55,171 nt of DNA, from IMG/VR virus record IMGVR_UViG_3300012971_000890, one strand, 5' to 3'. This stretch comes from a virus. Positions 17,516 through 41,717 of this stretch are shown piece after piece (the stretch's first letter is position 1; each line of letters starts with the position of its first letter). Both the position numbers and the translations under genes were made by a program. Below the pieces are notes generated by a model. That model did not search any database. It was not told where the DNA came from and saw only the letters and a list, made by a program, of their open reading frames with translations.

Positions 17516-17522
17516 GGCCGGC

Positions 17523-18508: not shown

Positions 18509-18515
18509 GCGTCTC

Positions 18516-18558: not shown

Positions 18559-18580
18559 CGCACCTGGGAGGGGTGTACGG

Positions 18581-21057: not shown

Positions 21058-21080
21058 TGTTCGTTCCTTTCTGTTACGCT

Positions 21081-21109
21081 ACTTTACTGCGAGTCTTCGC
21101 CGTTGTAAA
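21081..21109 (-). promoter_or_regulatory. phage promoter, CTTTACAAC-N17-TAAAGT
   Basis: Upstream of the AbrB-domain gene. Confidence 0.6.
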
Positions 21110-21120
21110 GCAGAACTTTT

Positions 21121-21486: not shown

Positions 21487-23105
21487 GCCGCAAATTCCAC
21501 GAGGTAGCGAAGCTCGAACTGGTTGCGCTGGAACACGATCCACTCGTTGTTCTGGACCTGCGAGTGGCCTCCCTTTCCGAAGACGCAGTGGCAGCCAGCC
21601 GGCGGGGCGGTATAACCACGCGGACCTGGCGCGACGTGCGGACGGCCCAGCACCACGTCACCCGCGAACATGAAAGCTTCACGGCCCCGCACGGCACCGC
21701 CGCCGGACGACCAGTAGCTCCCCCGCAGGCTGGTGTAGCCGGCACTTTTCTTCCAGTCGTCGGCCCAATAAATGCCGGGGCCGAACATAGCGCCGGTGAT
21801 GACCACGCCGACCAACTGACTCGGCATACGCAGGTTCTCCCGCAGGATGCCGGTGACGTTGACCGAGCGGGTGCCGTGGAACAGCAGGCCGGTGTTGCTG
21901 TCACGGTAGCGGCGGATGTCGTCGCTATTTTGCAAATCCGCACGCTCCGGCGGCTGGAACAGGGGCCGCTCGTCAATGCGATGCTTGCCCTGGACGATGC
22001 CGGCCTGCGCCCCCACCACCAACTTGTGGTCGCCGTGGCGCTCGACCCGCCAGGCGTTCTTGATTTTCATGGCTCCCAGGTAGCCGTGCTTGTTGGCCGT
22101 AGCGCGGGGCCACCAGCCGTAAAGCCACTTGCCCACATCGCTCTTGGGGTCGATCCACTCCATCTCGATGGGCATACCACCGAACGGGTCGTGCTGATGC
22201 TTCACGTCGTCCACGTCCGCAGCGACCGCCAGAGCCGCCTCAAAGGCGTCCAGGTCCGCCTGCCAGCCCAGGATGTTGCTGGTGTTGAGAATCCAGTCCT
22301 GGGGCGGGCAGTGCAGCGGCTTCTTCTTGGGGATGCGACCGTACATGAGCGCGGTCAAGTGCTTCAGGTCGTCATCGGCCACCTGGGCGTCCACGCTGTC
22401 GCCCACCACCAGCAGGCGCTTCTGGGCTTCGGCCAGGAAGTCGCGGGCCTCCTCGATGGCCGCTTGGGTGGGGATGGAGGCATCGGCCATGCTGCCACGG
22501 GCGTACTGCACCGTCGCCACGTTCAGGTCGCGCATGAGCGAGAGCGTATTCTGGTCCGCCGCACGGGCCGGGGCCTTGATGACCTTCTTCTTGGCACCTT
22601 TTTTGTCGTCCGCCGGGGTGTCGTCGGGCTTGTCCTTCGGTTTCGCCCCGTCGTTGGCCTTGATGGTGCGGGCGTCCGGCAGGCCAGTGCTGCGGGTCGC
22701 CATCGCCCGGACGAGGTAGCAGTCCTTGCCGGCGCGGGCACGCAGCACCCGCTTGCTGGCCACCTGGACCCACTCGCCCCGCTTGTCGTTCTTGTCGTGG
22801 AGTTGCGAAGCGAATTCACGCTGGGCGTCCGCCTCGCCGGAGCAGACCACGAACTGGAAGTTGGGGTTTTTCGCCCCGGTGCGGCCCCACTCGAAGTAAA
22901 CGGCCCACTGGCCGCTCGTCTTATGCTTGACGACCGCCGCGTGGTAGTATTTGTTTGAGTCCTTGCCGTCCTGGGTGAAACACCCCATGTCGGCAATCTT
23001 GCAACTGTCGAAGTCCCCATCCGCGATGGCGGGTGGTCCGAAGCACTGCCAATCGTTGGGGCTGGACCCGTTCGGGTAACTGTTCTTCTCGATCTTCGAT
23101 CCCAT
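21483..23105 (-). CDS. poly(ADP-ribose) polymerase-like ADP-ribosyltransferase with N-terminal WGR domain
   Basis: WGR motif (WAVYFEWGRTG); catalytic H-Y-E triad context LLFHGTRS, GPGIYWADD, QNNEWIVFQ; RBS GGAGAG; TTTACA promoter copy upstream. Confidence 0.75.
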   Translation of the reverse strand: MGSKIEKNSYPNGSSPNDWQCFGPPAIADGDFDSCKIADMGCFTQDGKDSNKYYHAAVVKHKTSGQWAVYFEWGRTGAKNPNFQFVVCSGEADAQREFASQLHDKNDKRGEWVQVASKRVLRARAGKDCYLVRAMATRSTGLPDARTIKANDGAKPKDKPDDTPADDKKGAKKKVIKAPARAADQNTLSLMRDLNVATVQYARGSMADASIPTQAAIEEARDFLAEAQKRLLVVGDSVDAQVADDDLKHLTALMYGRIPKKKPLHCPPQDWILNTSNILGWQADLDAFEAALAVAADVDDVKHQHDPFGGMPIEMEWIDPKSDVGKWLYGWWPRATANKHGYLGAMKIKNAWRVERHGDHKLVVGAQAGIVQGKHRIDERPLFQPPERADLQNSDDIRRYRDSNTGLLFHGTRSVNVTGILRENLRMPSQLVGVVITGAMFGPGIYWADDWKKSAGYTSLRGSYWSSGGGAVRGREAFMFAGDVVLGRPHVAPGPRGYTAPPAGCHCVFGKGGHSQVQNNEWIVFQRNQFELRYLVEFAA

Positions 23106-24730: not shown

Positions 24731-25243
24731 TTAGTTGGGAGGCGTCCAGCCCGGAGGAAGGAAGCGCCGGAGATAAAAGACCGTGACAGGCAGATCGTTC
24801 TCCAACCAGTGGCGGGCGATCAGTTCCTCGATTTTGTTCCAATCACCCCCGGCGATGCCTGAACCGAAAAGCGGGCAGCGAATTTCCACGTCGCGGCCCG
24901 CCTGGATATATTGTTTCGCCGTGGTGGCGACGGCCTTGAGGCACGCCTCCAGCGAGTCGTAAATCAAGGGCGGGTTATGCCCGAAGTGCTGCGCCACCAT
25001 GTTGGCAACCACCACGTTGCCGTCGTCGCTGGGGACGAACTGCGTTTGCCCCAAGGCCAGGTCATGATTGGCGAGGTAAAGGGTTTTGGCGACGGGAAAC
25101 TGCTCGGCCAGGGGCAGGACGAAACCGGCACCCCACACCTTCTCGTCATTAACGACGTGCGGGATGATGACCAGTTTCGGGTCGTGGGGGTCGAGCGAGG
25201 CGAACAGGTCGCCCTCGACGTAGGCGGGATGGGTCTTGGCCAC
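24731..25243 (-). CDS. macro-domain protein (ADP-ribose binding or hydrolysing)
   Basis: VVNDEKVWGAGFV ... CPLFGSGIAGGDWNKIEELI matches the macro-domain Gly-rich loops. Confidence 0.7.
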   Translation of the reverse strand: MAKTHPAYVEGDLFASLDPHDPKLVIIPHVVNDEKVWGAGFVLPLAEQFPVAKTLYLANHDLALGQTQFVPSDDGNVVVANMVAQHFGHNPPLIYDSLEACLKAVATTAKQYIQAGRDVEIRCPLFGSGIAGGDWNKIEELIARHWLENDLPVTVFYLRRFLPPGWTPPN

Positions 25244-25516
25244 AAGTCTCCCCAGCCAACGTGAGCCAGCCGGGGCTTCTCCTTTCTGAATGTAAGAGTG
25301 CGGTCTTCGGGGGCGGTTTTGGCCACTTGCCCGATACTCGGTTTCCCTTCAAGCGAGTGTCCCAGGGTGGCTTGCGGGCCAGTGCCCCGGTACTCGTCGG
25401 GAGCCAAAGAGCGCTCAGGCCGCAACCTTCGCGCTCCCGGTGGCAGTGCTGCCGGAGGCTCTAGGCTTCTTCACCCCAGCCGCCTCCCTAGCCGCCGCTC
25501 TTTCGGCCATGTCCAG

Positions 25517-25545
25517 ATTCTACAGACGGATTTTCCGGTTGTAAA
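25517..25545 (-). promoter_or_regulatory. phage promoter, CTTTACAAC-N17-TAGAAT
   Basis: About 270 nt upstream of the macro-domain gene. Confidence 0.6.
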
Positions 25546-25551
25546 GCAAAG

Positions 25552-25737
25552 TTATTCCTTCGCCGGCTCTTCTGCCTCGTGGGAGCAGTAGCCACAGCGA
25601 GCGCCGGTGAGAATGCCGCCGCAAGTGCAGCAGTAGCGAGTCAGGAAGTTCTGAATGAACTCCAGGCGGTCTTCCGGGCGGAAGTGCTTCTGCCGCTCCA
25701 GAAACGCCTCATATTCCTCCTTGGCGGACTGCAACAT
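25552..25737 (-). CDS. small zinc-ribbon protein
   Basis: CCTCGG ... CGYCSH. Confidence 0.4.
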   Translation of the reverse strand: MLQSAKEEYEAFLERQKHFRPEDRLEFIQNFLTRYCCTCGGILTGARCGYCSHEAEEPAKE

Positions 25738-26380
25738 CGACGCCTCCGATCAGGGTGTTTGGGGTGAGGGGCTGCTTCATCCAGTGCTGGGAGGTTTGGA
25801 CGTGTCGGGGCCGGACGTACTTGGCGACGTGCAGGCCGAAATCCTGGTAGGGAAAAGCATCACGGGTGCGAACGACGTAGCCTTCGCAAGTGTGTCCGAA
25901 CGCCGAGGCGCGGGGCCACAAGTCGCGGATGCGGTCCTCGTCCCAGATTCCCTCATATAAAACCGGCACCGTGGGCACGTCCAGCAGACAGGCCCACTCC
26001 TGGGTGTCGTCCCAGGAAAGACAGGTGTTTCCGTCGTCATAAATACCGATCAGGTAGAAATAAGCGGTCAGGCGGTCGTAGAAGATGCTGTGCTTGGCGT
26101 ACAGGTTTTCACCACATAATCGCCAGCCCTGCGGGATGTTATGGCGAATTGAAGCGTGGACTTGCTTGACCAAAGTGCGGGAAGGATGGCTGCCTGAACT
26201 GCGGGAACGGGCGTGGTAGTGGATCGGATACATGGACGTATTTTCACCGTCCAGCTTCTCGGTCATGATGACTTGCTTGCCGAGAAAATGGTTCACATCC
26301 CCCAGCACCCTGTCGTCCTGGTCGGACTTTCGGCTCCAGGGAAAGTGGGGCGTTCGCGGGTACTTGTAAAGCCCGTTCAT
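25709..26380 (-). CDS. ATP-dependent RNA ligase (PF09414/Rnl2-like minimal ligase)
   Basis: YKYPRTPHFPWS N-terminus; motif I TEKLDGEN; motif IV CEGYVVR; motif V HVAKYVRP. Confidence 0.6.
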   Translation of the reverse strand: MNGLYKYPRTPHFPWSRKSDQDDRVLGDVNHFLGKQVIMTEKLDGENTSMYPIHYHARSRSSGSHPSRTLVKQVHASIRHNIPQGWRLCGENLYAKHSIFYDRLTAYFYLIGIYDDGNTCLSWDDTQEWACLLDVPTVPVLYEGIWDEDRIRDLWPRASAFGHTCEGYVVRTRDAFPYQDFGLHVAKYVRPRHVQTSQHWMKQPLTPNTLIGGVDVAVRQGGI

Positions 26381-28394: not shown

Positions 28395-28813
28395 TTGTCC
28401 TCCTTCCAGGTCTTGAGAATGCGCTTGACGGCCTGAACACAGTTGCCAGGCATCAGCACAGTCAACACCGGGACATCAGAAGGCATCCGTAGGGTTGAGT
28501 GGATGTCCACCGCGTAATCGGCGGTAGAGGCAAACGGCGGGCAGGCCAGCACGATATGCGGGGTGTTGGCGGCGACCATACCGGACAGAGCGTTGGACCT
28601 CCCTGCCACCGTCACGAAAATGACCCGGCTCTCGTTTTCAAAACGGTTGAGCAGGTCGAGAAGCTGCCGGGGGTTCTTGTGGGCCGAGCAGACGTGCTTC
28701 TCGACCTCCAGCCAATCGTAGCCGCGACTTCCCACCAGGGCGCTTAGCGGTCCCCACAGTTGTTCGACGTGATCGTTGTCCTTCTCGGAGCCGGCAATGA
28801 TAATGACTTTCAT
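28391..28813 (-). CDS. purE: PurE-like (N5-CAIR mutase / AIR carboxylase family)
   Basis: MKVIIIAGSEKD ... CSAHKNP ... VAGRSNALSGMVAANTPHIVLACPP. Confidence 0.65.
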   Translation of the reverse strand: MKVIIIAGSEKDNDHVEQLWGPLSALVGSRGYDWLEVEKHVCSAHKNPRQLLDLLNRFENESRVIFVTVAGRSNALSGMVAANTPHIVLACPPFASTADYAVDIHSTLRMPSDVPVLTVLMPGNCVQAVKRILKTWKEDK

Positions 28814-29049
28814 TTTATCAGGTCCAAAATAAATTCGGGTGTGTATAGAGTAATATCGAAGCCCTTCCCGCTCATTTCCATCAAGACCAGTCGCATGGTC
28901 TGTGCCCGCTTCGGACTGTCGCTCATGATTTTGCGGACGAGGGCCTTGGCCTCGTCGTCCACTTCCTGCTCCGAGAAGAACGGGCCGTGCTTGGAGCAGG
29001 AGAAGACCTCCACCACCAGCAACCAGTATTCGGTGAGTTTTTTGGGCAT
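28810..29049 (-). CDS. hypothetical small protein
   Basis: 79 aa. Confidence 0.4.
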   Translation of the reverse strand: MPKKLTEYWLLVVEVFSCSKHGPFFSEQEVDDEAKALVRKIMSDSPKRAQTMRLVLMEMSGKGFDITLYTPEFILDLIK

Positions 29050-29540
29050 CAGAATTTCAAAAGCTCCTGGGGAATCTCGTCGTAATTCACCACCAGGCGA
29101 TTTTCTTTGGTGAGCCGCCGGATGTCTTCAAGTTTATACTTCTGGCGCTCGCCCATCGTGCGCAGGTCCAATCCTGCGTCAAGAAACTTGCCGAGCGCGT
29201 AATCCTCAACCGCCTGTTTCCACCGCCAGTAGTACCGGATTGCCTCGTGGACGCTGGCATAGCGGCAACGTTCGTAGAAGTCGTCGCGTCGTTCGCTGGG
29301 CATGGATTCGTGTTCCCATTCCCCCAGCTTGTTGAGGCAGCCAAATGTGCCTTTGATGGCCCAGCGATCCGGGGCTTCTCGGTCGGGATTGCCCACGTTC
29401 TTGACGAAAACGCCATGCAAGCGCACGTCGTCAGAGAAGAACTCCCACCAGAATGGGGTGCCGCACAGCAGAGGCTCCGGCCCCAGATAAAATTCCGAGG
29501 CGAGGCTCAGCAAGTCATTGTCACTGATCCGCTCGCTCAT
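29049..29540 (-). CDS. hypothetical protein
   Basis: 163 aa. Confidence 0.45.
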   Translation of the reverse strand: MSERISDNDLLSLASEFYLGPEPLLCGTPFWWEFFSDDVRLHGVFVKNVGNPDREAPDRWAIKGTFGCLNKLGEWEHESMPSERRDDFYERCRYASVHEAIRYYWRWKQAVEDYALGKFLDAGLDLRTMGERQKYKLEDIRRLTKENRLVVNYDEIPQELLKF

Positions 29541-29575
29541 TTTGTTTCTCCAGGGCCAAAAGCAGCCGGTTGCCC

Positions 29576-30547
29576 CTAATCGAGTTTGACATCTCCGGCC
29601 TTCAACCTTTCCCGAATGCGGTCCAGCCCCCGCTCACGCAGTTGCCGAACACGTTCCTTGGTCAGTCCCAAATCCGCACTGATTTCCTTGAGGGTGCGTT
29701 TGCTGCCGTCGCAATCATGCAGCCCAAACCATTCCTCGATGACGAAGCGCTTGCGCTCGTCCTCCTCGCGGTCCAGCAGGCTTAGAAGGCGGGAGACATT
29801 TCTCTGCGTAAGCTCCTTGGCTTCCTCGTGGTCACGGCAATCCTCGTCGCTGGTGTCGAGGCGGGTGTCATATATTCCGTCATCGAAGCCGGTGACGAAC
29901 CGCTCGTTGAAGTTGCGTTCACCGGCGAGATCGCGGGTGAAGTTGTTGAGCAAGACCCAGGTGCCGTAGGTGGAGAATTTGAAACCACGGGTCCAGTCAA
30001 AACAATCCACCGCCTTGACGATATTCAGGTAGGCGTCGGAGAGCAGGTCGTTCACCAGGCTGTGCGCCCGATAAAAGTCCGTGCGTTTGCGAAGCACCTG
30101 AGCGGCCAACCGGGTGTTGGAACACACAAGTTGGTGCTTTACCGTCTCGGCCAGTTTCAAATAGTCCTCCACCTTCTGGAGCTTCTTTTTCATTCGATCA
30201 TATTGATCCCTGGTGGTCGGCTCCTTCTGCCGCAGGGTGCGGGCCAGCCTTTTTGCCCGATACTTGAAATAGTTGAACTTGCGAAACAGGTGATATTCTT
30301 GCTCCTTGTCCAGCAGGGGTTCCTGGTACAATGGAATCAACTCGGTCGGTATATTTTGGCCCTTGAGCTTCGTGACCTCGTTGCGCTTCTCGTTGAATTC
30401 CGCCAGCCGGGGCATGTCGCCAACGATAACGACTTCCTTAGTGCGGTCATCAAAGTCGGGATGGTTGAAAATCTTGAATTTCTTGTTGGTGACGAACGCC
30501 TTGAGTCGTTTGGCCTTCTGCGTAACGTCGTCCTTAACTGCCAGCAT
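29576..30547 (-). CDS. sigma-70 family RNA polymerase sigma factor
   Basis: Region 2 FSTYGTWVLLNNFTRDLA; region 4 HTH KRTLKEISADLGLTKERVRQLRERGLDRIRERL; sits behind the promoter copy with a perfect TATAAT. Confidence 0.75.
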   Translation of the reverse strand: MLAVKDDVTQKAKRLKAFVTNKKFKIFNHPDFDDRTKEVVIVGDMPRLAEFNEKRNEVTKLKGQNIPTELIPLYQEPLLDKEQEYHLFRKFNYFKYRAKRLARTLRQKEPTTRDQYDRMKKKLQKVEDYLKLAETVKHQLVCSNTRLAAQVLRKRTDFYRAHSLVNDLLSDAYLNIVKAVDCFDWTRGFKFSTYGTWVLLNNFTRDLAGERNFNERFVTGFDDGIYDTRLDTSDEDCRDHEEAKELTQRNVSRLLSLLDREEDERKRFVIEEWFGLHDCDGSKRTLKEISADLGLTKERVRQLRERGLDRIRERLKAGDVKLD

Positions 30548-30582
30548 GGCTGCGCCTCCTTTCGGCAGTCCTACGCAGTCTG

Positions 30583-30611
30583 ATTATAGACCAAACCTGG
30601 CCAGTTGTAAA
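30583..30611 (-). promoter_or_regulatory. phage promoter, CTTTACAAC-N17-TATAAT
   Basis: About 36 nt upstream of the sigma-factor gene. Confidence 0.7.
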
Positions 30612-30638
30612 GTGCGTTTGTCCAGGTAGGGATAAGAT

Positions 30639-31043
30639 TTACGGAAGCGGCACGAGAAATGCGTTAAGTGCCTTGACGATCTTCCGCACCCGATACCCGT
30701 TGGGGTGGTCCACAACAACCGTAATTTCCTTGTCAGCCACCGCCCAGGGTTTGCCGGCGGCGTTTTGTTCGATGATGACGTAGATGCAGGTGTTGTGGGT
30801 GTAGCGGCGGCTGTAACCGTGCGTGTCCCAAAGCTCCTTGTCTTGCGGCGTTTGGAAAATAAAAAACTCGTTGCGATCAAGTGCTTGGCGAAGTCGCCGG
30901 CTGGGAGCGCCGTGGGGCGGGTCGTCGTACTCAACGACCAGCCCTGGCCACTCCCGCCGGCAAATACCGAGGACGCCTTTCTCAACCTGGGCGTAGGTCT
31001 TCCCCTCCGGCCACTCATAAAGCAGATCGTAACCGCCGATCAT
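30639..31043 (-). CDS. hypothetical protein (start MIGGYDLLYE...)
   Basis: ATGA overlap with the histidine-kinase stop at 31040. Confidence 0.4.
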   Translation of the reverse strand: MIGGYDLLYEWPEGKTYAQVEKGVLGICRREWPGLVVEYDDPPHGAPSRRLRQALDRNEFFIFQTPQDKELWDTHGYSRRYTHNTCIYVIIEQNAAGKPWAVADKEITVVVDHPNGYRVRKIVKALNAFLVPLP

Positions 31044-33283
31044 CCGATCTCCACCTTGGAGTGTTTCCTGAACAAGTCCTCCAGCACGCCGGGGATCACC
31101 GGCTTGACGAGATATTCGTGGAAGCCCGCCTCGCTCGCTAACATGCGGTGTTTCTCGGAAGCCAAGCCGGTGACCGCGATAATCACCGCTTGCGGCACCA
31201 GACGGCGCAGTTCTCTGCACACCTTGAAGCCGTCCATGTAGGGCAAGCCGATGTCGAGCAGCACCACGTCGGGATCGAACTCATTGGCACTTTTGATAGC
31301 CGCCGGCCCGTCATTGGCCACCCACACGTCGTAGCCCTGCATACGCAGCATGGCCACGAAGCTGTCCGCCGCGTCCACGTTGTCATCCACCACCAGGATG
31401 CGGCAGTCCTTGCTGGGGGCGGTGGGCACGGTAGCCGGCTCTTCGCGGGTGCGACGTGGAGTGATGGGTTCCGGCATGGCCACCCGCTCCTCGCGCCCGT
31501 TGATGACAGGCAGTTTGACGGTGAAGGTGCTGCCAAGGTTCAAACCAGGACTGTGGGCATTGACGCTGCCGGCGTGCATCTCCACGATCTGCTTGACCAG
31601 GCTCAGGCCCACGCCCAACCCGCCCATGCTTCCGGTGACATGGTTCTGGCCGCGCCGTTCCGCCTGAGCGAACAGGTCGAAAACCTTCCCCAGCATTTGC
31701 TCCGAGATGCCGATGCCCGTGTCGGTGATGCTGACGATGGCCTCGCGCTCGTCGCTCTCCATGTCAATGCGAATCTTGCCGCACGCCTCGGTATATTTCG
31801 CGGCATTATTGAGGAGGTTGGTGAAAACCTGCTCCAGACGGGCCAGGTCGCCTTCCACCCACACCGCCATGACCGGGACGTTGATGGTCAGGGCATGATA
31901 ACGCATATCCAGGTTGGGGCGAGACTGCTCGATGGCACGGGCAATCGCCTGCTGGAGTTGGACCGGCTTGCGCTGCAATTGGAGCTTACCCCGGCTGATG
32001 CGAGCAACGTCCAGCAGGTCGTCCAGCAAACGCGAAATGTGCTGGACCTGGCGCTCGATGAGTTGGCGGTGGTCGCGCACCACCGGATCGCAGTCGCCGT
32101 CACGCATCCGCGTCACTTGCAAGCTGGACAGGATGGGTGCCAAGGGGTTGCGCAGTTCGTGGGACAGGATAGCCAGGAACTCGTCCTTGCGGCGGTCGGC
32201 CTCGGAAAGCTCCTCTACCAGTTGGCGGTGTTCGGTCAGGTCGAGGCACAAGGACACCCAGCCGTCCTTGACGGGCGTATAGAGGCCATTCACCCACCGC
32301 TTGCCGATGCCGGGGATGTCCAGTTCGTCCTCGTAGTTGACATGCTCACCGGCAAGGACTTTTTGAAACTTGGGCAGCAACTTGTCGAAGATTTCCTGGC
32401 CGAAGACTTCGATGATGGACTTGCCGATAATGTCCTCGACGGGCCGTTTCAGCCAGCACCCGTAGGGTTTGCTGCACCACAGGACTTTGAAATCACGGCT
32501 GAAGTGGATCACACACGCCGCCATGCCGTCCACGACGGTGTGCAATTGCGCCGTGACCTCGGCCAACTGGTCGGCCTCGTGCTTACGCTCCGTGAAATCC
32601 TGAAGCACCGCGACCCAACCCTCCTTGGTGGGGGTGTACCGGCCCACCACCCAGCGCGGGCCGATGTTGGCGATGTTAATTTCCTGCTCGTATTCGACCT
32701 GCTCCCCGTGGATCGCCTTTTCCCAGAGGGGCCGCAGGATATTGAACGCCTCATCTCCGATAATATCACGGATCGGGCGACCGATAACCTCCTCCGGGGA
32801 CTTCCGCAGCCAATCGCAATACGGCTTGCTGGCCCAGAGGTATTTGTAGTCCCGGTCCAGGTGGCAGACGGCTGCGGCCATGCCGTCCACTACGCTGTGC
32901 AATTGGGTCGTCACACGCGCCAGACGTTCTTCGTGTTTTTTTCGCTCGGTGATGTCGCGGACGACCGCCACAAATCCCATCTCGCAGGGCGAAATCGTCA
33001 TCTCGATGGGAAACTCCTCGCCGTTGAGGCGCTTCGCCCGTGTCTCCACGAGAGAGCCTATCATCGGCCCCCGCCCCGTGGCCTTGTAAGTGTCCAGACC
33101 GGCGCGGACCTGCGGCACCATTCGTTCCGGCACGAACAATTCGTGAACGGATTTTCCCACCAGATTATCCGCCGGGCAGCCGAACATTCGTTCCGCCGCC
33201 GGGTTGAACGTGGTGATGGTCAGGTCTTTATCGGTGAGGATGATTGCGTCCTGCGCGGCTTCCAGAACGGCGTTCAGCATCAT
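31040..33283 (-). CDS. hybrid sensor histidine kinase/response regulator with about four PAS domains
   Basis: H-box HELRNPLAPI; N/G boxes (NLLNNAAKYT, DTGIGI, GGLGVGLS); C-terminal receiver domain (ILVVDDN ... LLDIGLP ... LVKP). Confidence 0.85.
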   Translation of the reverse strand: MMLNAVLEAAQDAIILTDKDLTITTFNPAAERMFGCPADNLVGKSVHELFVPERMVPQVRAGLDTYKATGRGPMIGSLVETRAKRLNGEEFPIEMTISPCEMGFVAVVRDITERKKHEERLARVTTQLHSVVDGMAAAVCHLDRDYKYLWASKPYCDWLRKSPEEVIGRPIRDIIGDEAFNILRPLWEKAIHGEQVEYEQEINIANIGPRWVVGRYTPTKEGWVAVLQDFTERKHEADQLAEVTAQLHTVVDGMAACVIHFSRDFKVLWCSKPYGCWLKRPVEDIIGKSIIEVFGQEIFDKLLPKFQKVLAGEHVNYEDELDIPGIGKRWVNGLYTPVKDGWVSLCLDLTEHRQLVEELSEADRRKDEFLAILSHELRNPLAPILSSLQVTRMRDGDCDPVVRDHRQLIERQVQHISRLLDDLLDVARISRGKLQLQRKPVQLQQAIARAIEQSRPNLDMRYHALTINVPVMAVWVEGDLARLEQVFTNLLNNAAKYTEACGKIRIDMESDEREAIVSITDTGIGISEQMLGKVFDLFAQAERRGQNHVTGSMGGLGVGLSLVKQIVEMHAGSVNAHSPGLNLGSTFTVKLPVINGREERVAMPEPITPRRTREEPATVPTAPSKDCRILVVDDNVDAADSFVAMLRMQGYDVWVANDGPAAIKSANEFDPDVVLLDIGLPYMDGFKVCRELRRLVPQAVIIAVTGLASEKHRMLASEAGFHEYLVKPVIPGVLEDLFRKHSKVEIG

Positions 33284-33308
33284 GGCCTTCCCCTGTCCTG
33301 GGCGATGC

Positions 33309-33701
33309 CTACTCTTCCGGTGGCATTTCCAAAAAGATGTCTGCTTGTCCGACCCCCTGGCCGCTCTGTTTGGCCGCTAGTTTATGAGCCAACTTGAGAA
33401 GCCCCAAAGCGATGTGAGGCGGCAGGTTGTGAACCTCCATGTCCAGGTCCATACCCAACGGCTCGAATTTGGGCAGGAGCAAGACGAAAGGCGGCTGCGG
33501 CCTTTTGCGCAGTTCACCCAGGATTTGGTCTGTTGTAGCCAACTCCAGGTCGAGTTGCAACGGGTCTTTCTCCAGCACGGCATTTAGTTGGTCTTGCAAC
33601 CGCCGTGCCATCAGCTTGTATCGGAGCAGAGAAAAGCCCAGCAACCCCACCAGGACCGTCACGAGGAGGGCGATGACGCCGCCGAGGATGATGTTAACCA
33701 T
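33309..33701 (-). CDS. membrane-anchored hypothetical protein (N-terminal TM)
   Basis: MVNIILGGVIALLVTVLVGLLGFSLL. Confidence 0.45.
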   Translation of the reverse strand: MVNIILGGVIALLVTVLVGLLGFSLLRYKLMARRLQDQLNAVLEKDPLQLDLELATTDQILGELRKRPQPPFVLLLPKFEPLGMDLDMEVHNLPPHIALGLLKLAHKLAAKQSGQGVGQADIFLEMPPEE

Positions 33702-33990
33702 CTGTACCTTCCTTGTAGATCATGCAGTTGGCATACCGTTCGCCGTCCAGGCACCACAGTTGGAGGGAGGCGGTGTCGCAAACCAGCCGCCGCCAGTCAT
33801 CCGGGGGCACGGTTCCAGGGCTGATTATATCACCTGCCCCCATTAAAAATCCATGAGTGGATGGGCAGCGACAGAAGCAACCCTTCTCATCCGCCGCAAT
33901 GTGTGGACACACCCGCGTGCCCTGGCTCTCAGCCCACAACTCGCGCCACAGTTCCATGCCAATCCCCCTACAGGCGACGGAGGGTTTCAC
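33694..33990 (-). CDS. small Cys-rich hypothetical protein
   Basis: 98 aa. Confidence 0.35.
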   Translation of the reverse strand: MKPSVACRGIGMELWRELWAESQGTRVCPHIAADEKGCFCRCPSTHGFLMGAGDIISPGTVPPDDWRRLVCDTASLQLWCLDGERYANCMIYKEGTDG

Positions 33991-34519
33991 TGATGAGCTT
34001 GTCCCGCCACGCGAATATAGTCCAATCGGGTGCTACTTCATACGAATCGTCCGCAGGAAATGCACCGTATCTTACCACAACACCATCGCATGTCAACAAC
34101 AAAGGTTCATTACCGGACAGGAACGCGGGGTTCACGGGGACCACAAACGGTTCGAGGACCAGCCCGTGCTGCGGTCGGCTGGCCTGGCCGATGGTCAGGT
34201 CAAGCATCTGGCCTTTTGAAATCACCACCAGATGCCCCGACCACTTCCCCTCAGTATAACCATATCCCAGGCCGACGCTATAGGAACCGTCCTCCGCGAA
34301 CGCTTTTTCGAGTTCCTGCATGGTGCGCGGCGTCCGGCGCTCGCGCATCCGCTTCGCCAGTGGGGCATTATAAATAATGGCCTTCACCGAGAGGGCGTTG
34401 GCGGGAATTTTGAAAAGGTGCAGCACGTCCAGGGCCAGACGGGTCGCCAGGATGCAACAGTCCGGGCGGTGGTTGCACAGCACTTCGGGCAGCACCTTGC
34501 AGAGCTTTTCGAGCATCAT
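33968..34519 (-). CDS. hypothetical protein
   Basis: 183 aa. Confidence 0.45.
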   Translation of the reverse strand: MMLEKLCKVLPEVLCNHRPDCCILATRLALDVLHLFKIPANALSVKAIIYNAPLAKRMRERRTPRTMQELEKAFAEDGSYSVGLGYGYTEGKWSGHLVVISKGQMLDLTIGQASRPQHGLVLEPFVVPVNPAFLSGNEPLLLTCDGVVVRYGAFPADDSYEVAPDWTIFAWRDKLISETLRRL

Positions 34520-34926
34520 TTACACCAAAAGGGTCCACAGTCTTTGGCACCTTCGACGCTTTTCTTGTAGATGTAGGCTTCCGCCCGCTTGGCCTGATAA
34601 TCCTCGAATACCTTCGGGTCGGTGGGCAGGAAGGCCAGGTTTATTTCCGCGAAGGAAATCAACTTTCGCTCGTAAAGTCCGTGGGCGACGGCCTCCACCA
34701 CGTCAAGCTGTTTCAGGCACTCCTCGTCCACTTCATACAACTCACCATGAACGTGACTGCCCTCGTCGCTAGGTTCCACGAGAGCCGGGTGACCGGACAA
34801 CTGGTGCATCCGGTAGCTGGGCGTGGTCACGCCGATGCCCAGGTAGCGTTGGCCCACCAAATAACGATAACGAGAGTGGGCTTGCTTGAGGGTGCCATAA
34901 ACGAACATTAGATATTTTCTCGGCAT
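34516..34926 (-). CDS. gamma-glutamyl cyclotransferase (AIG2/GGCT-like)
   Basis: YLMFVYGTLKQ N-terminal signature; start taken at MPRKYLMF. Confidence 0.55.
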   Translation of the reverse strand: MPRKYLMFVYGTLKQAHSRYRYLVGQRYLGIGVTTPSYRMHQLSGHPALVEPSDEGSHVHGELYEVDEECLKQLDVVEAVAHGLYERKLISFAEINLAFLPTDPKVFEDYQAKRAEAYIYKKSVEGAKDCGPFWCK

Positions 34927-35015
34927 ATTGCTCCTTTTAGCAGAAAAGCCACCGCGACCCACTAACCACCTGGCGGTAGAGGGTCGGGTGGCTTTCGGCG
35001 CGGTTGCGGCGTCCG

Positions 35016-35330
35016 CTAGGTATTATACTGACGCACGAAGAATTCGTGCATCATGAAGAATACTTTCGTCTTCGAGTCGGCGGGGGCAGGCTTCTTGCGG
35101 CGCTGGTACAGGACATCCAGTCGCAACAAGGCTTCAGCCATATCCGTCTCCCCCTCGCCTTCGATGCCGAAGTGCCGCAGGGTGTTGTTGAGTGCGTTCA
35201 GTCGCTTCTTCGCCTTCCGGTCATGGGCAGCAGCCTCCCGCAACTTCTCGTAGAAGCTTGAGCCGGTCGGCAGCAATTGCAGGTTCATCAACACAGTCAG
35301 ACCCCCTTGTGAAAGGTGCCACCTACTCAT
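35016..35330 (-). CDS. hypothetical protein
   Basis: 104 aa. Confidence 0.35.
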   Translation of the reverse strand: MSRWHLSQGGLTVLMNLQLLPTGSSFYEKLREAAAHDRKAKKRLNALNNTLRHFGIEGEGETDMAEALLRLDVLYQRRKKPAPADSKTKVFFMMHEFFVRQYNT

Positions 35331-38147: not shown

Positions 38148-39440
38148 TTAGGCGGCTTTTACGGGGTACAACTTGGCCTCACCCCGGACCACTTCCGGCG
38201 TGACGACGTACTTGCCTCCCTGGTGTTCCGGCAGTTCGTACATGATGTCGAGCATGATCTCCTCGACCACGCCCCGCAACGCACGGGCACCCGTGTCGCG
38301 CTCGATGGCCCGCTTGGCGACTTCCTTGATGGCATCCGGCGTAAATTCCAGGGTCGCGCCGTCCATCTTGAAAATCTTCATGTACTGCTTGAGTAGGGCG
38401 TCCTTCGGCTCGGTCAGAATCTTGCAGAGGAATTCCTCGTTCAACTCGCTGAGGGTGGTTACGACCGGCAGCCGGCCCACGAACTCCGGGATCATCCCGA
38501 ACTCAATCAGATCGTCGCTGGTCACCTTGCCCATGATGGCGTCGTTCTGCTCTTGCTCAGTGCCCTCGTCACGCGATACGCCGAAGCCGATGCTGCGTCG
38601 GCCCGTCCGGCGAGCGATGATCTCCTTCAGGCCGGTGAAGGTTCCCCCGCAGATGAACAGGATGTTCGTCGTGTCCACCTGGATGTATTGCTGCTCCGGG
38701 TGCTTGCGCCCGCCCTGGGGCGGGACGTTGGCGAGCGTGCCCTCAAGCATCTTCAGGAGAGCCTGTTGCACGCCTTCGCCGGAAACGTCGCGGGTGATGG
38801 AAATATTCTGCGTGGTCTTCCCGATCTTGTCGATCTCGTCAATGTAAATGATGCCGCACTGCGCGGCCTCGATGTTAAAGTCCGCCGAGCGGAGAAGACG
38901 CAGGATCAGGTTTTCCACGTCCTCTCCGACGTAACCGGCCTCGGTTAGCGTGGTGGCGTCCCCAATGGCAAAGGGGACATCCAGTTTCTTGGCCAGGGTG
39001 CGGGCCAGAAGGGTCTTGCCCGACCCGGTGGGACCGACCAGCAGAATGTTGCTCTTGTCGATCACCACGTCCGCCAACGGGTCTTCCTCCTCCTTGTTCT
39101 GGTTGGTGGTGTCCTTCAGACGCTTGTAATGGTTGGCGACGGCGACGGCCAGAATCTTCTTCGCCCGTTCCTGGCCCACAACGTACTGGTCCATGTGGGC
39201 GACCAGTTCCTTGGGCGAAGGGATGTGCTGGGGCAGGTGCTTGTCGATGAGTTCGCGTTTCAGGTTTTGCTTCTTGATGATCTCCTGGCAAATCTCCACG
39301 CAGGTGGGGCAAATGAAGACCTTATCCTCGTCCGGCTTTCTGCCGTTGGCGAGGGCACCTGGCCCCTCAATCAACGGTCCCACAACCTTGTGAGACTGCT
39401 TGCAGAAGTCACAGTGCTGCTCACGCTTTTTCCTCGTCAT
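38148..39440 (-). CDS. clpX: ATP-dependent Clp protease ATP-binding subunit ClpX
   Basis: N-terminal C4 zinc-binding domain; [47 protein letters not shown] is near-identical to the ClpX consensus. Confidence 0.9.
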
Positions 39441-39479
39441 GCTGTCCTCGTTGGGTGTAAAGGATCGCGTTTCCAACCT

Positions 39480-39508
39480 AGTATACTTACCGAGGAGCCG
39501 ACTGTAAA
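39480..39508 (-). promoter_or_regulatory. phage promoter, CTTTACAGT-N17-TATACT
   Basis: Upstream of clpX. Confidence 0.6.
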
Positions 39509-39512
39509 GTGA

Positions 39513-40589
39513 CTACTCGCAAGAACTTGCTGCCTTTTCACGCGCCTCGCTAAGTGCCTGTTTGCAACGCGCCTTAAAGTCTTGATCCGTCATGGCCTCC
39601 ACGATTCGCTCGATCTCCTCGATGGGCTTGTTGGCCTCAACAGCATTCAACACCGCGTCGAGGTCATGGTTTTGCCTCCGCAGGCAGGCCAGTTCCAACC
39701 CGCCAATCTCCGTGGCCACCAGATGGGGGTCGGGGTACGCCCGGCCCAGCACCGCCAGAAGGGGTCCAAAGTCCGCCCCCGGCGTGTTTTTGCAAATTTC
39801 CAGCGTCCGCAGCAGGTTGACGTGGAGGGACGCTTTCGTGGCGGGAACGGCGGCTTCCGCCTCCGCATACCTCCCCAAGCTCGCCAACACAAAGACCTTG
39901 CGCAACCTGCGGAATTCGGCATGATTCTCGACCCGGTTGATCTCAGACTGTGCCAGCAACGCCACCAGGGGCATGATGAGGGCCATCATCCACAGCCCCG
40001 TGGCCAAAGCATACAGGAACAGGAGCAGGCAGGTCACCTGGCCGACCCGCACGGCCCACCAATTGGCCTTCTGGTAGTCCATGAACCGGCCCAAGATGGA
40101 GCGAAAGATGCGGCCTCCGTCCATCGGATAAGCCGGTGCCAAATTGAAAACGAACAGCATGACGTTGATGTAGGCAAACCAGAACGCCACCTGAGCCGCA
40201 ACCATCCAATTCAGTTCGACAAATACCAGCACCAAGCCGCTACACAGTACCGCCAGGACAACATTCACCATCGGCCCCATAACGGTGACGATAAACTCCT
40301 TGCGCGGGTCGTCCGGGCCAATCTCGATGGCGGCAACCCCGCCGATAGGATAAAGGACCACCCGATCCACCTGGATGCCCTGGCTCTTGGCGGCGAGGAT
40401 GTGTCCGTATTCGTGCATTACCACGAACAGGAACACAGCCAGGAACAGCGCGGTGGCCAAGGGGTTAAGGAACAGCATCATCACCATCATCATGACCCAC
40501 GACCAGTGGGCATAAAGGGGCACCCCAAAGTAAGTACCCAGGTGCGGGTTAACTATTTTCTGCAAAAGCTCCGTGCTGTTCATATTCAT
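39513..40589 (-). CDS. site-2 protease family (M50) membrane metalloprotease
   Basis: HEYGH and NLAPAYPMDGGR motifs; several TM segments. Confidence 0.75.
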   Translation of the reverse strand: MNMNSTELLQKIVNPHLGTYFGVPLYAHWSWVMMMVMMLFLNPLATALFLAVFLFVVMHEYGHILAAKSQGIQVDRVVLYPIGGVAAIEIGPDDPRKEFIVTVMGPMVNVVLAVLCSGLVLVFVELNWMVAAQVAFWFAYINVMLFVFNLAPAYPMDGGRIFRSILGRFMDYQKANWWAVRVGQVTCLLLFLYALATGLWMMALIMPLVALLAQSEINRVENHAEFRRLRKVFVLASLGRYAEAEAAVPATKASLHVNLLRTLEICKNTPGADFGPLLAVLGRAYPDPHLVATEIGGLELACLRRQNHDLDAVLNAVEANKPIEEIERIVEAMTDQDFKARCKQALSEAREKAASSCE

Positions 40590-40635
40590 CCTTGGGGTGG
40601 GGGCTACATAAATATTATAGGGAAAAGGAGCCAAT

Positions 40636-41211
40636 TTGAGACTCGACCATATAGCATACCGCGTCCGCGACCGCCACACCACCGCGAAATTCTTTCGGGA
40701 AGCATTCGGCTACAAAGTCCAGACCGAATTTGACATCGACTTCGGCGGCGGCAAGTGTGCCAAGTGCCTCGCCCTGGAGCCGCCGGAGCGTCAAAATGCC
40801 CCCCGACATCTTATCCCCTGGGTGGCCGGGGAAGCAATATACATTCCGTGCCCGGACGGCGGGATGCAGAATGTGGTGCAGGATTACCACCTGGCCCCGG
40901 AGATTTTCGTCTCCGATGGTTCGCCAGGAAGCATTGTGGGGGATTGGGTTGCGGCCCGTGGAGGGGTCGGTGGCATTCACCACCTGGCATATCAGGTCGA
41001 AGATGTGGCGGCAACAATGAAGGAGTGGCGGGACAGAGGCTACGCGGAATTTACATCAGAAGAACCCATGCGATGTCCCGGACTGACCCAGGTGTTTACC
41101 AAACCCTCCTCGCTAACGGGCGTGATTTACGAGTTCATCGAGCGCCAGGAATTCGGCTTCTGCAAAGACAACGTGCGCCAGTTGATGCTCTCGACCCAGG
41201 AGGAAAAATGA
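40636..41211 (+). CDS. VOC/glyoxalase-family protein (TTG start)
   Basis: MRLDHIAYRVRD...FFREAFGY glyoxalase-fold N-terminus; RBS AAGGAG. Confidence 0.6.
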   Translation: MRLDHIAYRVRDRHTTAKFFREAFGYKVQTEFDIDFGGGKCAKCLALEPPERQNAPRHLIPWVAGEAIYIPCPDGGMQNVVQDYHLAPEIFVSDGSPGSIVGDWVAARGGVGGIHHLAYQVEDVAATMKEWRDRGYAEFTSEEPMRCPGLTQVFTKPSSLTGVIYEFIERQEFGFCKDNVRQLMLSTQEEK

Positions 41212-41717
41212 AGATTTGTTCTAAGTGCGGGGCTACCCAAGAAATCGGTAACTTTGCCGTTCGGTCCAAGACTACCGGGCGTCGTCATTCTTGGTGCAAT
41301 GCCTGCCTTAAACAATATAAGGCCGACTACTATGCCAAGCACCAGGATAAATTCCGAGAATACAAAAAGGTGTGGTATCCGGCCAACCAAGACCAGCAGC
41401 GTGCGAAATGCCGCGAGCGGTACGACAAGTGCGACAAGGACCAGCACGCTCAGGTTGTATGGAAAAATAAAATCCTCCGAGAATTTGGTCTTACCGTAGA
41501 GGAATACAACCTTCGACTGACAGAACAAAAAGGGGTGTGCGCCATCTGTGGCAAAGCAGATAGTCAACGGCTCGCTGTTGACCACTGCCATAAAACAGGT
41601 ATGATCCGTGGACTCCTTTGCCGGCGATGCAACGTGGCCATTGGTATCTTCGAGGACGATCCAGAACTGTTGGAAAAAGCCCTTGCGTATCTCAAGTCGG
41701 CTTGTCTTCGGGCGTAA
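41208..41717 (+). CDS. recombination endonuclease VII (T4 Endo VII family)
   Basis: GVCAICGK ... LAVDHCHKTGMIRGLLCRRCNVAIG; ATGA overlap with the VOC gene. Confidence 0.7.
   Translation: MKICSKCGATQEIGNFAVRSKTTGRRHSWCNACLKQYKADYYAKHQDKFREYKKVWYPANQDQQRAKCRERYDKCDKDQHAQVVWKNKILREFGLTVEEYNLRLTEQKGVCAICGKADSQRLAVDHCHKTGMIRGLLCRRCNVAIGIFEDDPELLEKALAYLKSACLRA

What the first reader, a model, noticed from the sequence alone, without database searches (positions are those of the whole stretch)
29576..33283. Sigma-70-family factor next to a PAS-rich hybrid histidine kinase in a phage-like context
The product of 31040..33283 is a 747-aa hybrid sensor kinase with about four PAS domains, an H-box, HATPase motifs and a C-terminal receiver. 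The receiver carries no DNA-binding output. A 134-aa gene (30639..31043) follows it by ATGA overlap, and the sigma-70-family factor (29576..30547) is next, with its own TTTACA/TATAAT promoter. Sensor kinases are rare in viral genomes. The arrangement of HK, a small partner, then sigma suggests the phage couples an environmental or host-state signal (redox or light through PAS) to control of its dedicated sigma, perhaps via phosphorelay or partner switching.
Basis: partly seen in the sequence, partly recalled or inferred. Interest (0 to 1): 0.65.

Follow-up and report, generated by a model that had tools for sequence, protein, structure and literature searches.

The report
Huge-phage hybrid sensor kinase beside sigma gene
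A giant bacteriophage carries an intact bacterial-type sensor kinase and a small unknown protein just upstream of its own sigma factor gene, but comparison with relatives shows both are optional cargo next to a core gene, not a proven control circuit for it.

Summary
The kinase (31040..33283, minus strand) has 3 PAS domains, not about 4, then HisKA, HATPase_c and a receiver, with every catalytic motif intact. The 134-aa gene overlaps its stop codon (ATGA). The sigma gene (29576..30547) has its own TTTACA-17-TATAAT promoter.

The context is a huge phage. Gene order matches the 595-kb 'uncultured phage' LR756511.1 and 400-673-kb contigs. Independent assemblies and codon usage rule out a chimera.

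The sigma factor is a core gene of the lineage and sits at the same place in relatives that lack the kinase. Kinase and small protein occupy a variable slot upstream of its promoter. They occur together (with 3, 1 or 0 PAS domains), kinase alone, or small protein alone.

The kinase core is 43-50% identical to abundant hybrid kinases, mostly of Planctomycetota. The small protein belongs to an unnamed alpha+beta family. It is not like Hpt, STAS or anti-sigma proteins.

My best reading is host-derived accessory signalling cargo that acts on host phosphorelays. Direct control of the phage sigma is not excluded (about 15%). Interest is moderate.

The parts
31040..33283 (-). Soluble hybrid sensor histidine kinase, 747 aa, with the order PAS1-PAS2-PAS3-HisKA-HATPase_c-REC. 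It has no transmembrane segment, no Hpt domain and no DNA-binding domain.
   Evidence: Pfam, NCBIfam (ArcB/TorS/PnpS-like, all below the equivalog cut-offs), motifs read. The core is 50% identical to the L003 phage kinase and 43-50% identical to bacterial, mostly Planctomycetota, HisKA-HATPase-REC proteins.
32939..33277 (-). PAS1 (residues about 3-115). It is FixL-like in sequence, but the residue aligned to what I recall as FixL's haem-binding histidine is valine.
32234..32911 (-). PAS2 (residues about 125-235) and PAS3 (about 245-350), a tandem duplication 52% identical.
31991..32188 (-). HisKA dimerisation and phospho-acceptor domain, with H375 in the motif SHELRNPL.
31505..31852 (-). HATPase_c catalytic domain. 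The N, G1, F and G2 boxes are all present.
31079..31399 (-). C-terminal receiver domain (D633, D634, D677, T705, K727).
30639..31043 (-). 134-aa protein whose start overlaps the kinase stop codon (ATGA). It belongs to an unnamed alpha+beta family with invariant G4, D6, W32, F60, F61, W72, G76, T108 and V110.
   Evidence: about 30 homologues in 5.8 billion proteins. AlphaFold2 model with pLDDT 90 and pTM 0.86. No significant fold or sequence match.
30583..30611 (-). Promoter of the sigma gene, TTTACAAC-N15-TATAAT. It is one of a family of 12 promoters in the window, all on the minus strand.
   Evidence: Sigma-70-type promoters sit at the same place in L009, L003 and L099.
29576..30547 (-). Core phage sigma-70-family factor, 323 aa. 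It has an N-terminal helical extension, region 1.2, sigma-2, a disordered linker of about 25 aa where sigma-3 would be, and sigma-4.
   Evidence: Pfam, NCBIfam (passes only the TIGR02937 superfamily cut-off), alignment to SigA, AlphaFold2 model, and synteny.
33309..33701 (-). 130-aa protein with an N-terminal transmembrane helix, immediately upstream of the kinase. It marks the slot boundary and is not specific to the kinase, because it is also present in the kinase-less relatives L008, L097 and L103.
39480..39508 (-). Nearest upstream promoter of the same family (TTTACAGT-N15-TATACT), in front of clpX. It is the probable start of the long transcription unit that ends with the kinase and the small gene (inferred).
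   Evidence: Same-family sites lie just upstream of clpX in L003 and L008.
38148..39476 (-). Phage ClpX. This is context only: it is the first gene of the inferred operon that contains the kinase.
   Evidence: NCBIfam equivalog match, 590 bits against a cut-off of 359; Pfam.

Best explanation
The kinase and the small protein are accessory cargo in a variable slot of a huge-phage genome. By descent, that slot lies just upstream of the promoter of the lineage's core sigma-70-like factor.

Shown:
- The kinase is an intact, soluble PAS-HisKA-HATPase-REC hybrid kinase.
- Its catalytic core belongs to a very abundant bacterial family that is mostly planctomycetal.
- Its codon usage matches the phage, and it has been kept with all catalytic residues across phage relatives that are only 50% identical.

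Inferred mechanism:
- The kinase is transcribed as a distal gene of the early clpX operon.
- It autophosphorylates on H375 and passes the phosphoryl group to its own receiver at D677.
- Because it has no Hpt domain, and no Hpt or response regulator was found in the window, it then exchanges phosphoryl groups with host Hpt proteins or response regulators. It would act either as a donor or as a phosphate sink. Either way it rewires host signalling during infection, with the PAS domains tuning activity where they are present.

The sigma factor is made from its own near-consensus promoter and redirects host RNA polymerase independently of the kinase. The small protein is a separate accessory factor of unknown biochemical activity.
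For: - Domains and motifs are intact. The kinase core is conserved at 50% identity with every catalytic residue retained in L003, and homologous kinase C-terminal (receiver) fragments lie at the same position in L099, L009 and L101.
- At least 570 bacterial relatives are 43-50% identical over the whole core. Most are Gemmataceae, Pirellulales, Isosphaeraceae or other Planctomycetota.
- The sigma gene is at the same position, with the same neighbours, in relatives that lack the kinase.
- Slot contents vary: kinase + small + sigma, kinase + sigma, small + sigma, or neither.
- The sensor region varies between 3, 1 and 0 PAS domains.
- The sigma gene has its own promoter, one of a family of 12. 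No promoter of that family lies between 39508 and the kinase, and terminator-like sites in 28800..35200 are not enriched over shuffles.
- No second receiver, kinase or PAS domain occurs in the window. No Hpt was found among the roughly 60 window proteins scanned.
- None of the 79 bacterial loci holding kinase relatives has a homologue of the small protein nearby.
- The region is not chimeric.
Against: - No host Hpt protein or response regulator target has been identified, and the host itself is only inferred.
- Only 55 kb of a genome of at least 151 kb was visible, so a phage-encoded Hpt or response regulator could lie elsewhere.
- The kinase sits directly upstream of sigma in four diverged lineages, and the small gene is immediately upstream of sigma in 7 of the 8 subclade lineages where this could be checked. 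That pattern is also what a functional link would give.
- The ATGA overlap shows that kinase and small protein are co-expressed where both are present.
- A phosphate-sink or phosphate-donor role has never been demonstrated for a phage kinase.
Confidence: 0.5

Rival explanations
1. The PAS kinase senses host state and, through the small protein (by phosphorelay or partner switching), controls the activity of the phage sigma factor after translation.
For: The gene order kinase, small gene, sigma is kept in three diverged variants. Kinase and small gene are translationally coupled (L003). The receiver has no output domain. The small protein gives a confident, compact fold that could be a binding module.
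Against: - The sigma gene is core and works without either gene in most of the clade.
- The kinase occurs without the small gene in L099, and the small gene without the kinase in L102 and L103.
- The small protein has no invariant histidine, so it is not an Hpt. It also has no STAS or anti-sigma fold.
- Its distant homologues lie in a planctomycete chromosome and in other large contigs, without an adjacent kinase or sigma gene.
- The L003 kinase has no sensor domain.
Confidence: 0.15
2. The small protein, not the kinase, is the element linked to sigma. It would modulate the phage sigma factor or host RNA polymerase, and the kinase would be an unrelated later insertion next to it.
For: The small gene lies immediately upstream of sigma in 7 of the 8 subclade lineages that could be checked, including two without a kinase. 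The family is narrow and conserved.
Against: - L099 lacks the small gene.
- Homologues elsewhere are not next to sigma genes.
- The small gene lies upstream of the sigma promoter, in a different transcription unit.
- No fold similarity to known sigma-binding proteins was found.
Confidence: 0.12
3. A proteolysis switch. The phosphorylated receiver would act like RssB, as an adaptor that hands the sigma factor (phage or host) to the phage ClpX. The kinase lies in the inferred clpX operon, next to an M50 protease gene.
For: A full-length ClpX equivalog and an M50 protease lie about 5-6 kb upstream on the same strand, with no family promoter in between. The kinase resembles ArcB at the domain level. 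From textbook knowledge, not tested here: ArcB feeds RssB in E. coli.
Against: ClpX and M50 are core genes, also present in relatives without the kinase. No ClpP was seen in the window. RssB needs a C-terminal PP2C-like domain that is absent here. There is no direct evidence.
Confidence: 0.05
4. Artefact. The kinase region is bacterial DNA mis-joined to a phage contig, or is a decaying passenger gene.
For: The closest non-phage relatives are bacterial. Many 'phage' database hits for kinases appear, from their record names and lengths, to be bacterial contamination.
Against: The same junctions appear in independent assemblies at 99.96-99.98% identity. Codon usage correlates with the rest of the window at r = 0.95. 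The same insertion occurs in diverged phage relatives. All catalytic residues are intact at 50% divergence.
Confidence: 0.02

Closest known systems
Bacterial orphan hybrid histidine kinases (HisKA-HATPase_c-REC), abundant in Planctomycetota; textbook examples of the architecture are ArcB, TorS, BarA and LuxQ
   Same: The catalytic core and receiver are the same, at 43-50% identity over 395 aa. All phosphotransfer motifs are present, and cytoplasmic PAS sensors lie at the N-terminus.
   Different: It is encoded by a huge phage. It has no Hpt domain, unlike ArcB, TorS and BarA, and no membrane anchor. It scores below every NCBIfam equivalog cut-off. The number of PAS domains varies between 0, 1 and 3 among phage orthologues.
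Sigma-70-like factors of huge and jumbo phages (Al-Shayeb et al. 2020, PMC7162821; Iyer et al. 2021, PMC7824862, 'group 2' jumbo phages)
   Same: It is a phage-encoded factor related to RpoD, presumably used to redirect host RNA polymerase. Its position in the genome is conserved from the window to LR756511.1.
   Different: The sigma-3 domain is replaced by a disordered linker of about 25 aa, and there is an N-terminal helical extension. The main texts of these two papers do not describe a kinase next to a phage sigma gene.
PAS-HisKA-HATPase-REC gene of the 735-kb huge phage LR756501.1
   Same: The domain architecture and size are the same (737 aa), in a huge phage.
   Different: It is only 23% identical, so probably an independent acquisition. 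It is not next to a sigma gene or to a homologue of the small protein.
Hybrid histidine kinases of brown-algal phaeoviruses such as EsV-1 (reviewed in PMC12993054, citing Delaroque et al. 2001)
   Same: They are virus-encoded hybrid kinases, proposed but not shown to sense cues for the viral programme.
   Different: They belong to eukaryotic giant viruses and have no demonstrated relation to the protein here.
Sigma regulation through two-component or partner-switching systems: ArcB-RssB-sigmaS-ClpXP, PhyR-NepR-EcfG, SpoIIAB/SpoIIAA, sigE-cseABC (from textbook knowledge)
   Different: The defining adaptor parts are all missing here. There is no RssB PP2C-like domain, no PhyR sigma-like domain, no STAS antagonist, no HATPase-only serine kinase and no DNA-binding response regulator.

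Membership tests
Two-component hybrid histidine kinase (HisKA class) | HisKA domain with an H-box histidine | tested here: met
   PF00512, E 8e-16; SHELRNPL with H375.
Two-component hybrid histidine kinase (HisKA class) | HATPase_c domain with N, G1, F and G2 boxes | tested here: met
   PF02518, E 4e-24; NLLNNAAKY, DTGIGI, FDLFAQ and GGLGVGLS.
Two-component hybrid histidine kinase (HisKA class) | Fused receiver with an acidic pocket, phospho-acceptor Asp, and the conserved Thr and Lys | tested here: met
   PF00072, E 1e-22; D633/D634, D677, T705, K727; the same residues are conserved in L003.
Two-component hybrid histidine kinase (HisKA class) | A downstream Hpt domain or protein and a terminal response regulator | tested here: not met
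   The protein has no Hpt domain. No Hpt or receiver was found elsewhere in the window. Only 55 kb of a contig of at least 151 kb was visible, so the rest of the genome and the host remain untested.
Two-component hybrid histidine kinase (HisKA class) | Autophosphorylation and phosphotransfer activity | not testable with these tools
   This needs biochemistry.
Sigma-70 family | Region 2 (core binding and -10 recognition) and region 4 (-35 recognition) | tested here: met
   PF04542 and PF04545. TIGR02937 scores 62.9 bits against a cut-off of 42.9. Alignment to SigA covers regions 1.2, 2 and 4.
Primary or primary-like sigma factors (RpoD/SigA, RpoS; groups 1 and 2) | Full set of regions 1.2, 2, 3 and 4, scoring above the equivalog cut-offs | tested here: not met
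   The best hits score 74-82 bits against cut-offs of 354-385. Only about 43 residues lie between regions 2 and 4, compared with about 97 in SigA. Residues 208-230 are disordered in the model, so there is no sigma-3 domain.
Hpt phosphotransfer protein (considered for the 134-aa product) | Four-helix bundle with a conserved phospho-accepting histidine | tested here: not met
   The model is a two-layer alpha+beta fold. No histidine is invariant across the family. There is no Pfam hit.
Anti-sigma factor or anti-sigma antagonist (STAS; RsbW/SpoIIAB type) (considered for the 134-aa product) | Sequence or fold similarity to a known anti-sigma, STAS or GHKL anti-sigma kinase | tested here: not met
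FixL-type haem PAS oxygen sensor (considered for PAS1) | Proximal histidine that ligates the haem iron | tested here: not met
   PAS1 aligns to the FixL haem domain (E 1.5e-9), but the query residue aligned to the H of FixL's RSRHDSY motif is valine. That this histidine is the proximal ligand is from my memory, not from a tool result.
Huge-phage lineage related to LR756511.1 | Shared gene order and homologous core genes with a record deposited as a phage | tested here: met
   The order AAA_33, FolD, PRS, Glyoxalase, M50, ClpX, Metallophos, GGACT, sigma is found in both. Relatives lie on contigs of 402-673 kb.
Huge-phage lineage related to LR756511.1 | Virion hallmark genes (capsid, terminase, portal) | tested here: inconclusive
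   None was found among about 60 window proteins scanned against Pfam and 10 scanned against PHROGs. The window is an early or auxiliary region, and the remainder of the contig was not available.
Known anti-phage defence systems (PADLOC) | A full-length match to a system component | tested here: not met
   Only domain-level hits were found: the receiver to SduA, sigma region 2 to MzaA, and an AAA protein to IetA/TRIP13.

The most novel reading that the evidence does not exclude
A huge phage uses a captured PAS hybrid kinase to read the host's cytoplasmic state. Through its receiver and/or the co-translated 134-aa protein of a previously undescribed fold family, it gates the activity or stability of its own sigma-3-less sigma factor. 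That would be a virus-encoded signal-transduction checkpoint on the phage transcription programme.
Probability: 0.13. Interest if true: 0.8.

Novelty: new member of a known kind. Interest (0 to 1): 0.4.

Why it matters
Sensor kinases are the main way bacteria read their environment. My full-text searches found no paper describing a phage-encoded histidine kinase.

This work shows an intact hybrid kinase retained across diverged huge phages, and a second, independently acquired one in the 735-kb phage LR756501.1. Some huge phages therefore carry their own signalling hardware. This points to host phosphorelays as a target of phage takeover.

It also gives three testable items:
- a soluble kinase whose natural variants have 3, 1 or 0 PAS domains;
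- a small, confidently folded family with no known function;
- a sigma-3-less phage sigma factor together with a well-defined promoter family.

The comparative result is also a caution. In these strongly syntenic genomes, lying next to a regulator gene is not evidence of regulation.

Tried and rejected
- Megablast of 24 kb of the window against INPHARED phages gave no match.
- Single-protein scans of IMG/VR with the sigma factor, the kinase and the small protein gave no confirmed relatives.
A subset alignment found no relatives in GTDB representative genomes.
- The afdb50 fold library was unavailable.
- Hpt, STAS or anti-sigma identity for the small protein was rejected: no Pfam, PDB-sequence or fold support.
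- Haem (FixL-like) sensing by PAS1 was rejected because the position I recall as the proximal histidine is valine. I saw no LOV-type NCRFL motif on reading the sequence.
- The L008 163-aa gene just upstream of sigma aligned at only 20% identity to the small protein and was not detected by the family profile.
- Chimeric assembly was rejected.
- Membership of a known defence system was rejected.
- Cluster names gave almost no taxonomy.
- No tRNA or Rfam family was found in the window.

Full report
**1. Observation.**

All three ORFs exist at the stated coordinates on the minus strand.

The 747-aa product of 31040..33283 matches PAS families in three separate stretches (residues about 3-115, 125-235 and 245-350). 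These are followed by HisKA (366-431), HATPase_c (478-593) and Response_reg (629-735), all well above Pfam's cut-offs. PAS2 and PAS3 are a tandem duplication, 52% identical.

The phosphotransfer motifs are all present: H375 in SHELRNPL, the N, G1, F and G2 boxes, and receiver residues D633/D634, D677, T705 and K727. There is no transmembrane segment, no Hpt domain and no DNA-binding domain.

The 134-aa ORF starts at an ATG that overlaps the kinase stop codon (ATGA), with a GGAG sequence upstream.

The 323-aa product of 29576..30547 has Sigma70_r2 and Sigma70_r4. It is preceded by TTTACA-17-TATAAT, matching 11 of 12 positions, and by a GGAGG ribosome-binding site.

**2. Is it a phage, and is the join real?**

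The window is one long array of minus-strand genes. It holds auxiliary and takeover functions:
- ParB-like protein, AAA_33 kinase, FolD and PRPP synthetase;
- M50 protease and a full ClpX equivalog;
- Metallophos, GGACT, PurE, an HD_4 domain protein and an HNH protein;
- two RNA ligases;
- PARP+WGR, NUDIX and an ADP-ribosylglycohydrolase.

No virion gene lies in the window. However, the sigma factor's best phage-database hit is LR756511.1, a 595-kb 'uncultured phage'. That region carries the same gene order: AAA_33, FolD, PRS, Glyoxalase, M50, ClpX, Metallophos, GGACT, sigma. Closer sigma homologues lie on contigs of 402, 587 and 673 kb with the same synteny on both sides.

LR756501.1 is in the same accession series, and its length of 735,411 bp matches the 735-kb genome of Al-Shayeb et al. 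2020 (PMC7162821). This link to the paper is my inference.

The segment assembled independently in other samples is 99.96-99.98% identical, without gaps, over 21 kb and 12.8 kb that span both kinase borders. The kinase's codon usage correlates with the rest of the window at r = 0.95, with GC3 of 0.805.

**3. Comparative anatomy of the slot.**

The sigma gene is a core gene. The table lists what lies in the slot upstream of it in each relative.

| Locus (sigma identity to window) | Slot content upstream of sigma |
|---|---|
| L005/L006, L007 (51-54%) | GGACT abuts sigma directly |
| L016 (32%) | GGACT abuts sigma directly |
| L097 (55%) | two unrelated small genes |
| L008 (45%) | seven unrelated small genes |
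| window, L001, L002 (100%) | TM130, kinase with 3 PAS, small |
| P0130 context, L009, L010, L101 (72%) | kinase with 1 PAS (512 aa), small |
| L003, L004 (65%) | kinase with no PAS (403 aa), small |
| L099 (64%) | kinase receiver ends 60 bp before sigma; no small gene |
| L103 (67%) | p87, TM130, small; no kinase |
| L102 (70%) | an Ala-rich ORF, small; no kinase |

The kinase and small protein therefore appear only in the subclade whose sigma factors are at least 64% identical to the window's, and there the slot is mosaic.

The membrane-anchored 130-aa protein just upstream of the kinase also occurs in relatives without the kinase, so it is not part of the module.

In summary, the sigma gene needs neither gene, and kinase and small gene do not need each other. 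The sensor part of the kinase is the most plastic element. Gene order in this lineage is conserved down to 32% sigma identity, so adjacency here mainly reflects descent.

**4. Origin of the kinase.**

The HisKA-HATPase-REC core is 50% identical between the window and L003, with all catalytic residues kept. That argues for selection on kinase and phosphotransfer activity.

It is 43-50% identical over its full length to at least 570 bacterial proteins. These are dominated by Planctomycetota (Gemmataceae, Pirellulales, Isosphaeraceae, Planctomycetaceae), with some Acidobacteriota, Myxococcota and Pseudomonadota. None of the 79 bacterial loci retrieved has a homologue of the small protein nearby, so the pairing arose in the phage lineage.

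A second huge phage, LR756501.1 (735 kb), carries its own 737-aa PAS-HisKA-HATPase-REC gene. It is 23% identical and has no sigma gene or small-family gene beside it. Most other 'phage' database hits look, from their record names and lengths, like bacterial contamination.

**5. The small protein.**

It has no Pfam, NCBIfam or PADLOC hit. An exhaustive search of 1.8 billion representative proteins found 7 relatives. A profile search found 30.

The family has an invariant N-terminal MIGGxD motif plus W32, E59-F60-F61, W72, G76 and T108/V110. No histidine is invariant.

It is therefore not an Hpt (which would be a four-helix bundle with a conserved histidine), a STAS domain or a known anti-sigma factor.

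Distant homologues occur in three other settings, none adjacent to a kinase or sigma gene (L011 has an ECF-type sigma gene about 5.4 kb downstream):
- a planctomycete chromosome, L015, which also carries PSCyt1/PSCyt2/PSD1, citrate synthase, SerRS and UvrC genes;
- a 764-kb contig, L013;
- L011.

**6. The sigma factor and its promoter.**

The protein matches primary-type sigma factors (SigA, HrdB, RpoD, RpoS) in regions 1.2, 2 and 4, but far below the equivalog cut-offs. It passes only the sigma-70 superfamily model.

Only about 43 residues separate regions 2 and 4. Residues 208-230 are disordered in the model, which otherwise shows an N-terminal helical extension, sigma-2 and sigma-4. It is thus a sigma-3-less derivative of an RpoD-like factor.

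Region 4.2 reads KERVRQ where the aligned SigA has RERIRQ. Region 2.4 reads TWVLLNNFTR where SigA has TWWIRQAITR. Recognition of promoters similar to the sigma-70 type is therefore plausible. This is an inference.

The promoter is not unique to the sigma gene:
- TTTACA[AG][CT]-N15/16-(G)TAnAAT occurs 12 times in the window, always on the coding strand and upstream of a gene start.
- With one mismatch allowed there are 6 matches against 0.04 expected. TTTACAAC alone occurs 9 times against 0.73 expected.
- Members precede clpX, PARP, rnl1, sigma and others.
- The class recurs in L003, L008 and L009.

Whether host SigA or the phage sigma factor reads these promoters is unknown.

No family promoter lies between the clpX promoter (39508) and the kinase, and no convincing terminator was found in the scanned stretch 28800..35200. 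I infer that the kinase and the small gene are the distal genes of the clpX transcription unit. A weaker TTGACA-16-TAAGAT at 34096 could add an internal start.

**7. Sensor specificity.**

PAS1 aligns to the haem PAS domain of FixL (E 1.5e-9). The position aligned to the histidine of RSRHDSY, which I recall as the proximal haem ligand, is valine. I saw no LOV motif on reading the sequence. The ligand is unknown, and the relative with no PAS domain shows that sensing is dispensable for whatever the core does.

**8. Mechanism.**

- **Shown.** This is an intact hybrid kinase without Hpt, with no partner response regulator or Hpt in the 55 kb examined. It is host-like in origin and retained in several phage lineages.
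- **Inferred.** The kinase autophosphorylates on H375 and transfers the phosphoryl group to D677. It then exchanges phosphoryl groups with host Hpt proteins or response regulators, as a donor or as a sink, and so perturbs host signalling early in infection. The phage sigma factor acts independently.
- **Rivals.**
 - A small-protein-to-sigma link that does not involve the kinase, suggested by the small gene lying next to sigma in 7 of 8 lineages (about 0.12).
 - An RssB-like hand-off to the phage ClpX (about 0.05).
 - An artefact (about 0.02).

**9. Comparison and novelty.**

As a protein, the kinase is an ordinary member of the hybrid histidine kinase family. Sigma factors are well known in huge and jumbo phages (PMC7162821; PMC7824862).

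My full-text searches found no description of a phage-encoded histidine kinase. The nearest viral precedent is the set of hybrid kinases of brown-algal phaeoviruses, whose role is also only conjectured (PMC12993054).

I classify the finding as a new member of a known kind in an unusual carrier. It comes with an uncharacterised small-protein family and a well-defined promoter family as by-products. Interest is moderate at 0.4. It would be high only if the checkpoint reading (about 13%) proved true.

Noticed in passing
window minus strand; first T of each site at 50591, 44899, 44125, 43443, 39508, 30611, 25545, 23175, 21109, 17417, 13629, 5999: A family of 12 promoters, TTTACA[AG][CT]-N15/16-(G)TAnAAT, all on the coding strand and upstream of gene starts, with none on the plus strand. 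There are 6 matches against 0.04 expected, and 9 against 0.73 for TTTACAAC alone. Most sites have a G directly before the -10 element. The class recurs in L003, L008 and L009. Which sigma factor reads it is unknown.
   Followed up: partly
window 17381..17417 (-): The rnl1 ATG (17383) begins only 5 nt after the -10 hexamer of its promoter. This suggests a leaderless mRNA.
   Followed up: no
window 25244..25545 (-): The promoter at 25545 is followed by about 270 nt with no called gene before the 170-aa ORF (24731..25243). This could be a long leader, a small ORF or a non-coding RNA. No Rfam family matched it.
   Followed up: no
window 38148..40682 (-): An M50 (site-2-type) metalloprotease gene lies directly upstream of a full-length ClpX equivalog. 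The M50-ClpX pair is also found in L003, L016, L097 and the P0130 context; L005, L007 and L008 have ClpX without an adjacent M50. No ClpP was seen in the window.
   Followed up: partly
window 14019..23105 (-): A cluster of NAD+/ADP-ribose and RNA-repair genes: PARP+WGR (21483..23105), a T4 Rnl1-like RNA ligase (16295..17383), NUDIX (15466..16032), an ADP-ribosylglycohydrolase (14019..15083), a GatB_Yqey-domain protein (17523..18185) and an AAA ATPase (18581..20299). A second RNA ligase lies at 25709..26380. The PARP, RNA ligase, NUDIX and glycohydrolase genes recur in the same order in L005 and L097, and mostly in L007.
   Followed up: no
window 40001..42000: A local drop in GC to 0.52 and a reversal of AT skew (+0.10 to +0.17, against negative values elsewhere). 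Overlapping ORFs lie on both strands (40755..41717 + and 41127..41822 -), and the minus-strand ORF has no Pfam hit. The coding strand here is unclear.
   Followed up: no
L017 5728..7941 (LR756501.1, 735-kb uncultured phage): A separate 737-aa PAS-HisKA-HATPase_c-REC hybrid kinase in the largest published huge phage. It is 23% identical to the window kinase. It lies next to a GH16 glycosidase and unknown genes, not next to a sigma gene.
   Followed up: partly
L016 9869..10805 (LR756511.1): The sigma homologue is split into two overlapping ORFs (9869..10438 and 10431..10805). This could be a frameshift, a sequencing error or a real disruption.
   Followed up: no
P0135, P0136 (218-aa members of the small-protein family): These two members carry an N-terminal extension of about 80 aa with a weak match to the ribosomal L7/L12 C-terminal domain. 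They are the only domain fusions seen in the family.
   Followed up: no
L102 1..263: An Ala-rich, low-complexity ORF occupies the position where the kinase sits in the window, directly upstream of the small-protein gene.
   Followed up: no
window 29049..29540 (-) versus L005 and L007 (HD_4 ORFs): The 163-aa protein just downstream of sigma is homologous to part of the ORF that carries the HD_4 domain in L005 and L007. This suggests a gene fission or fusion in the sigma-HD_4 interval, where the window also has a 79-aa ORF and PurE inserted.
   Followed up: no
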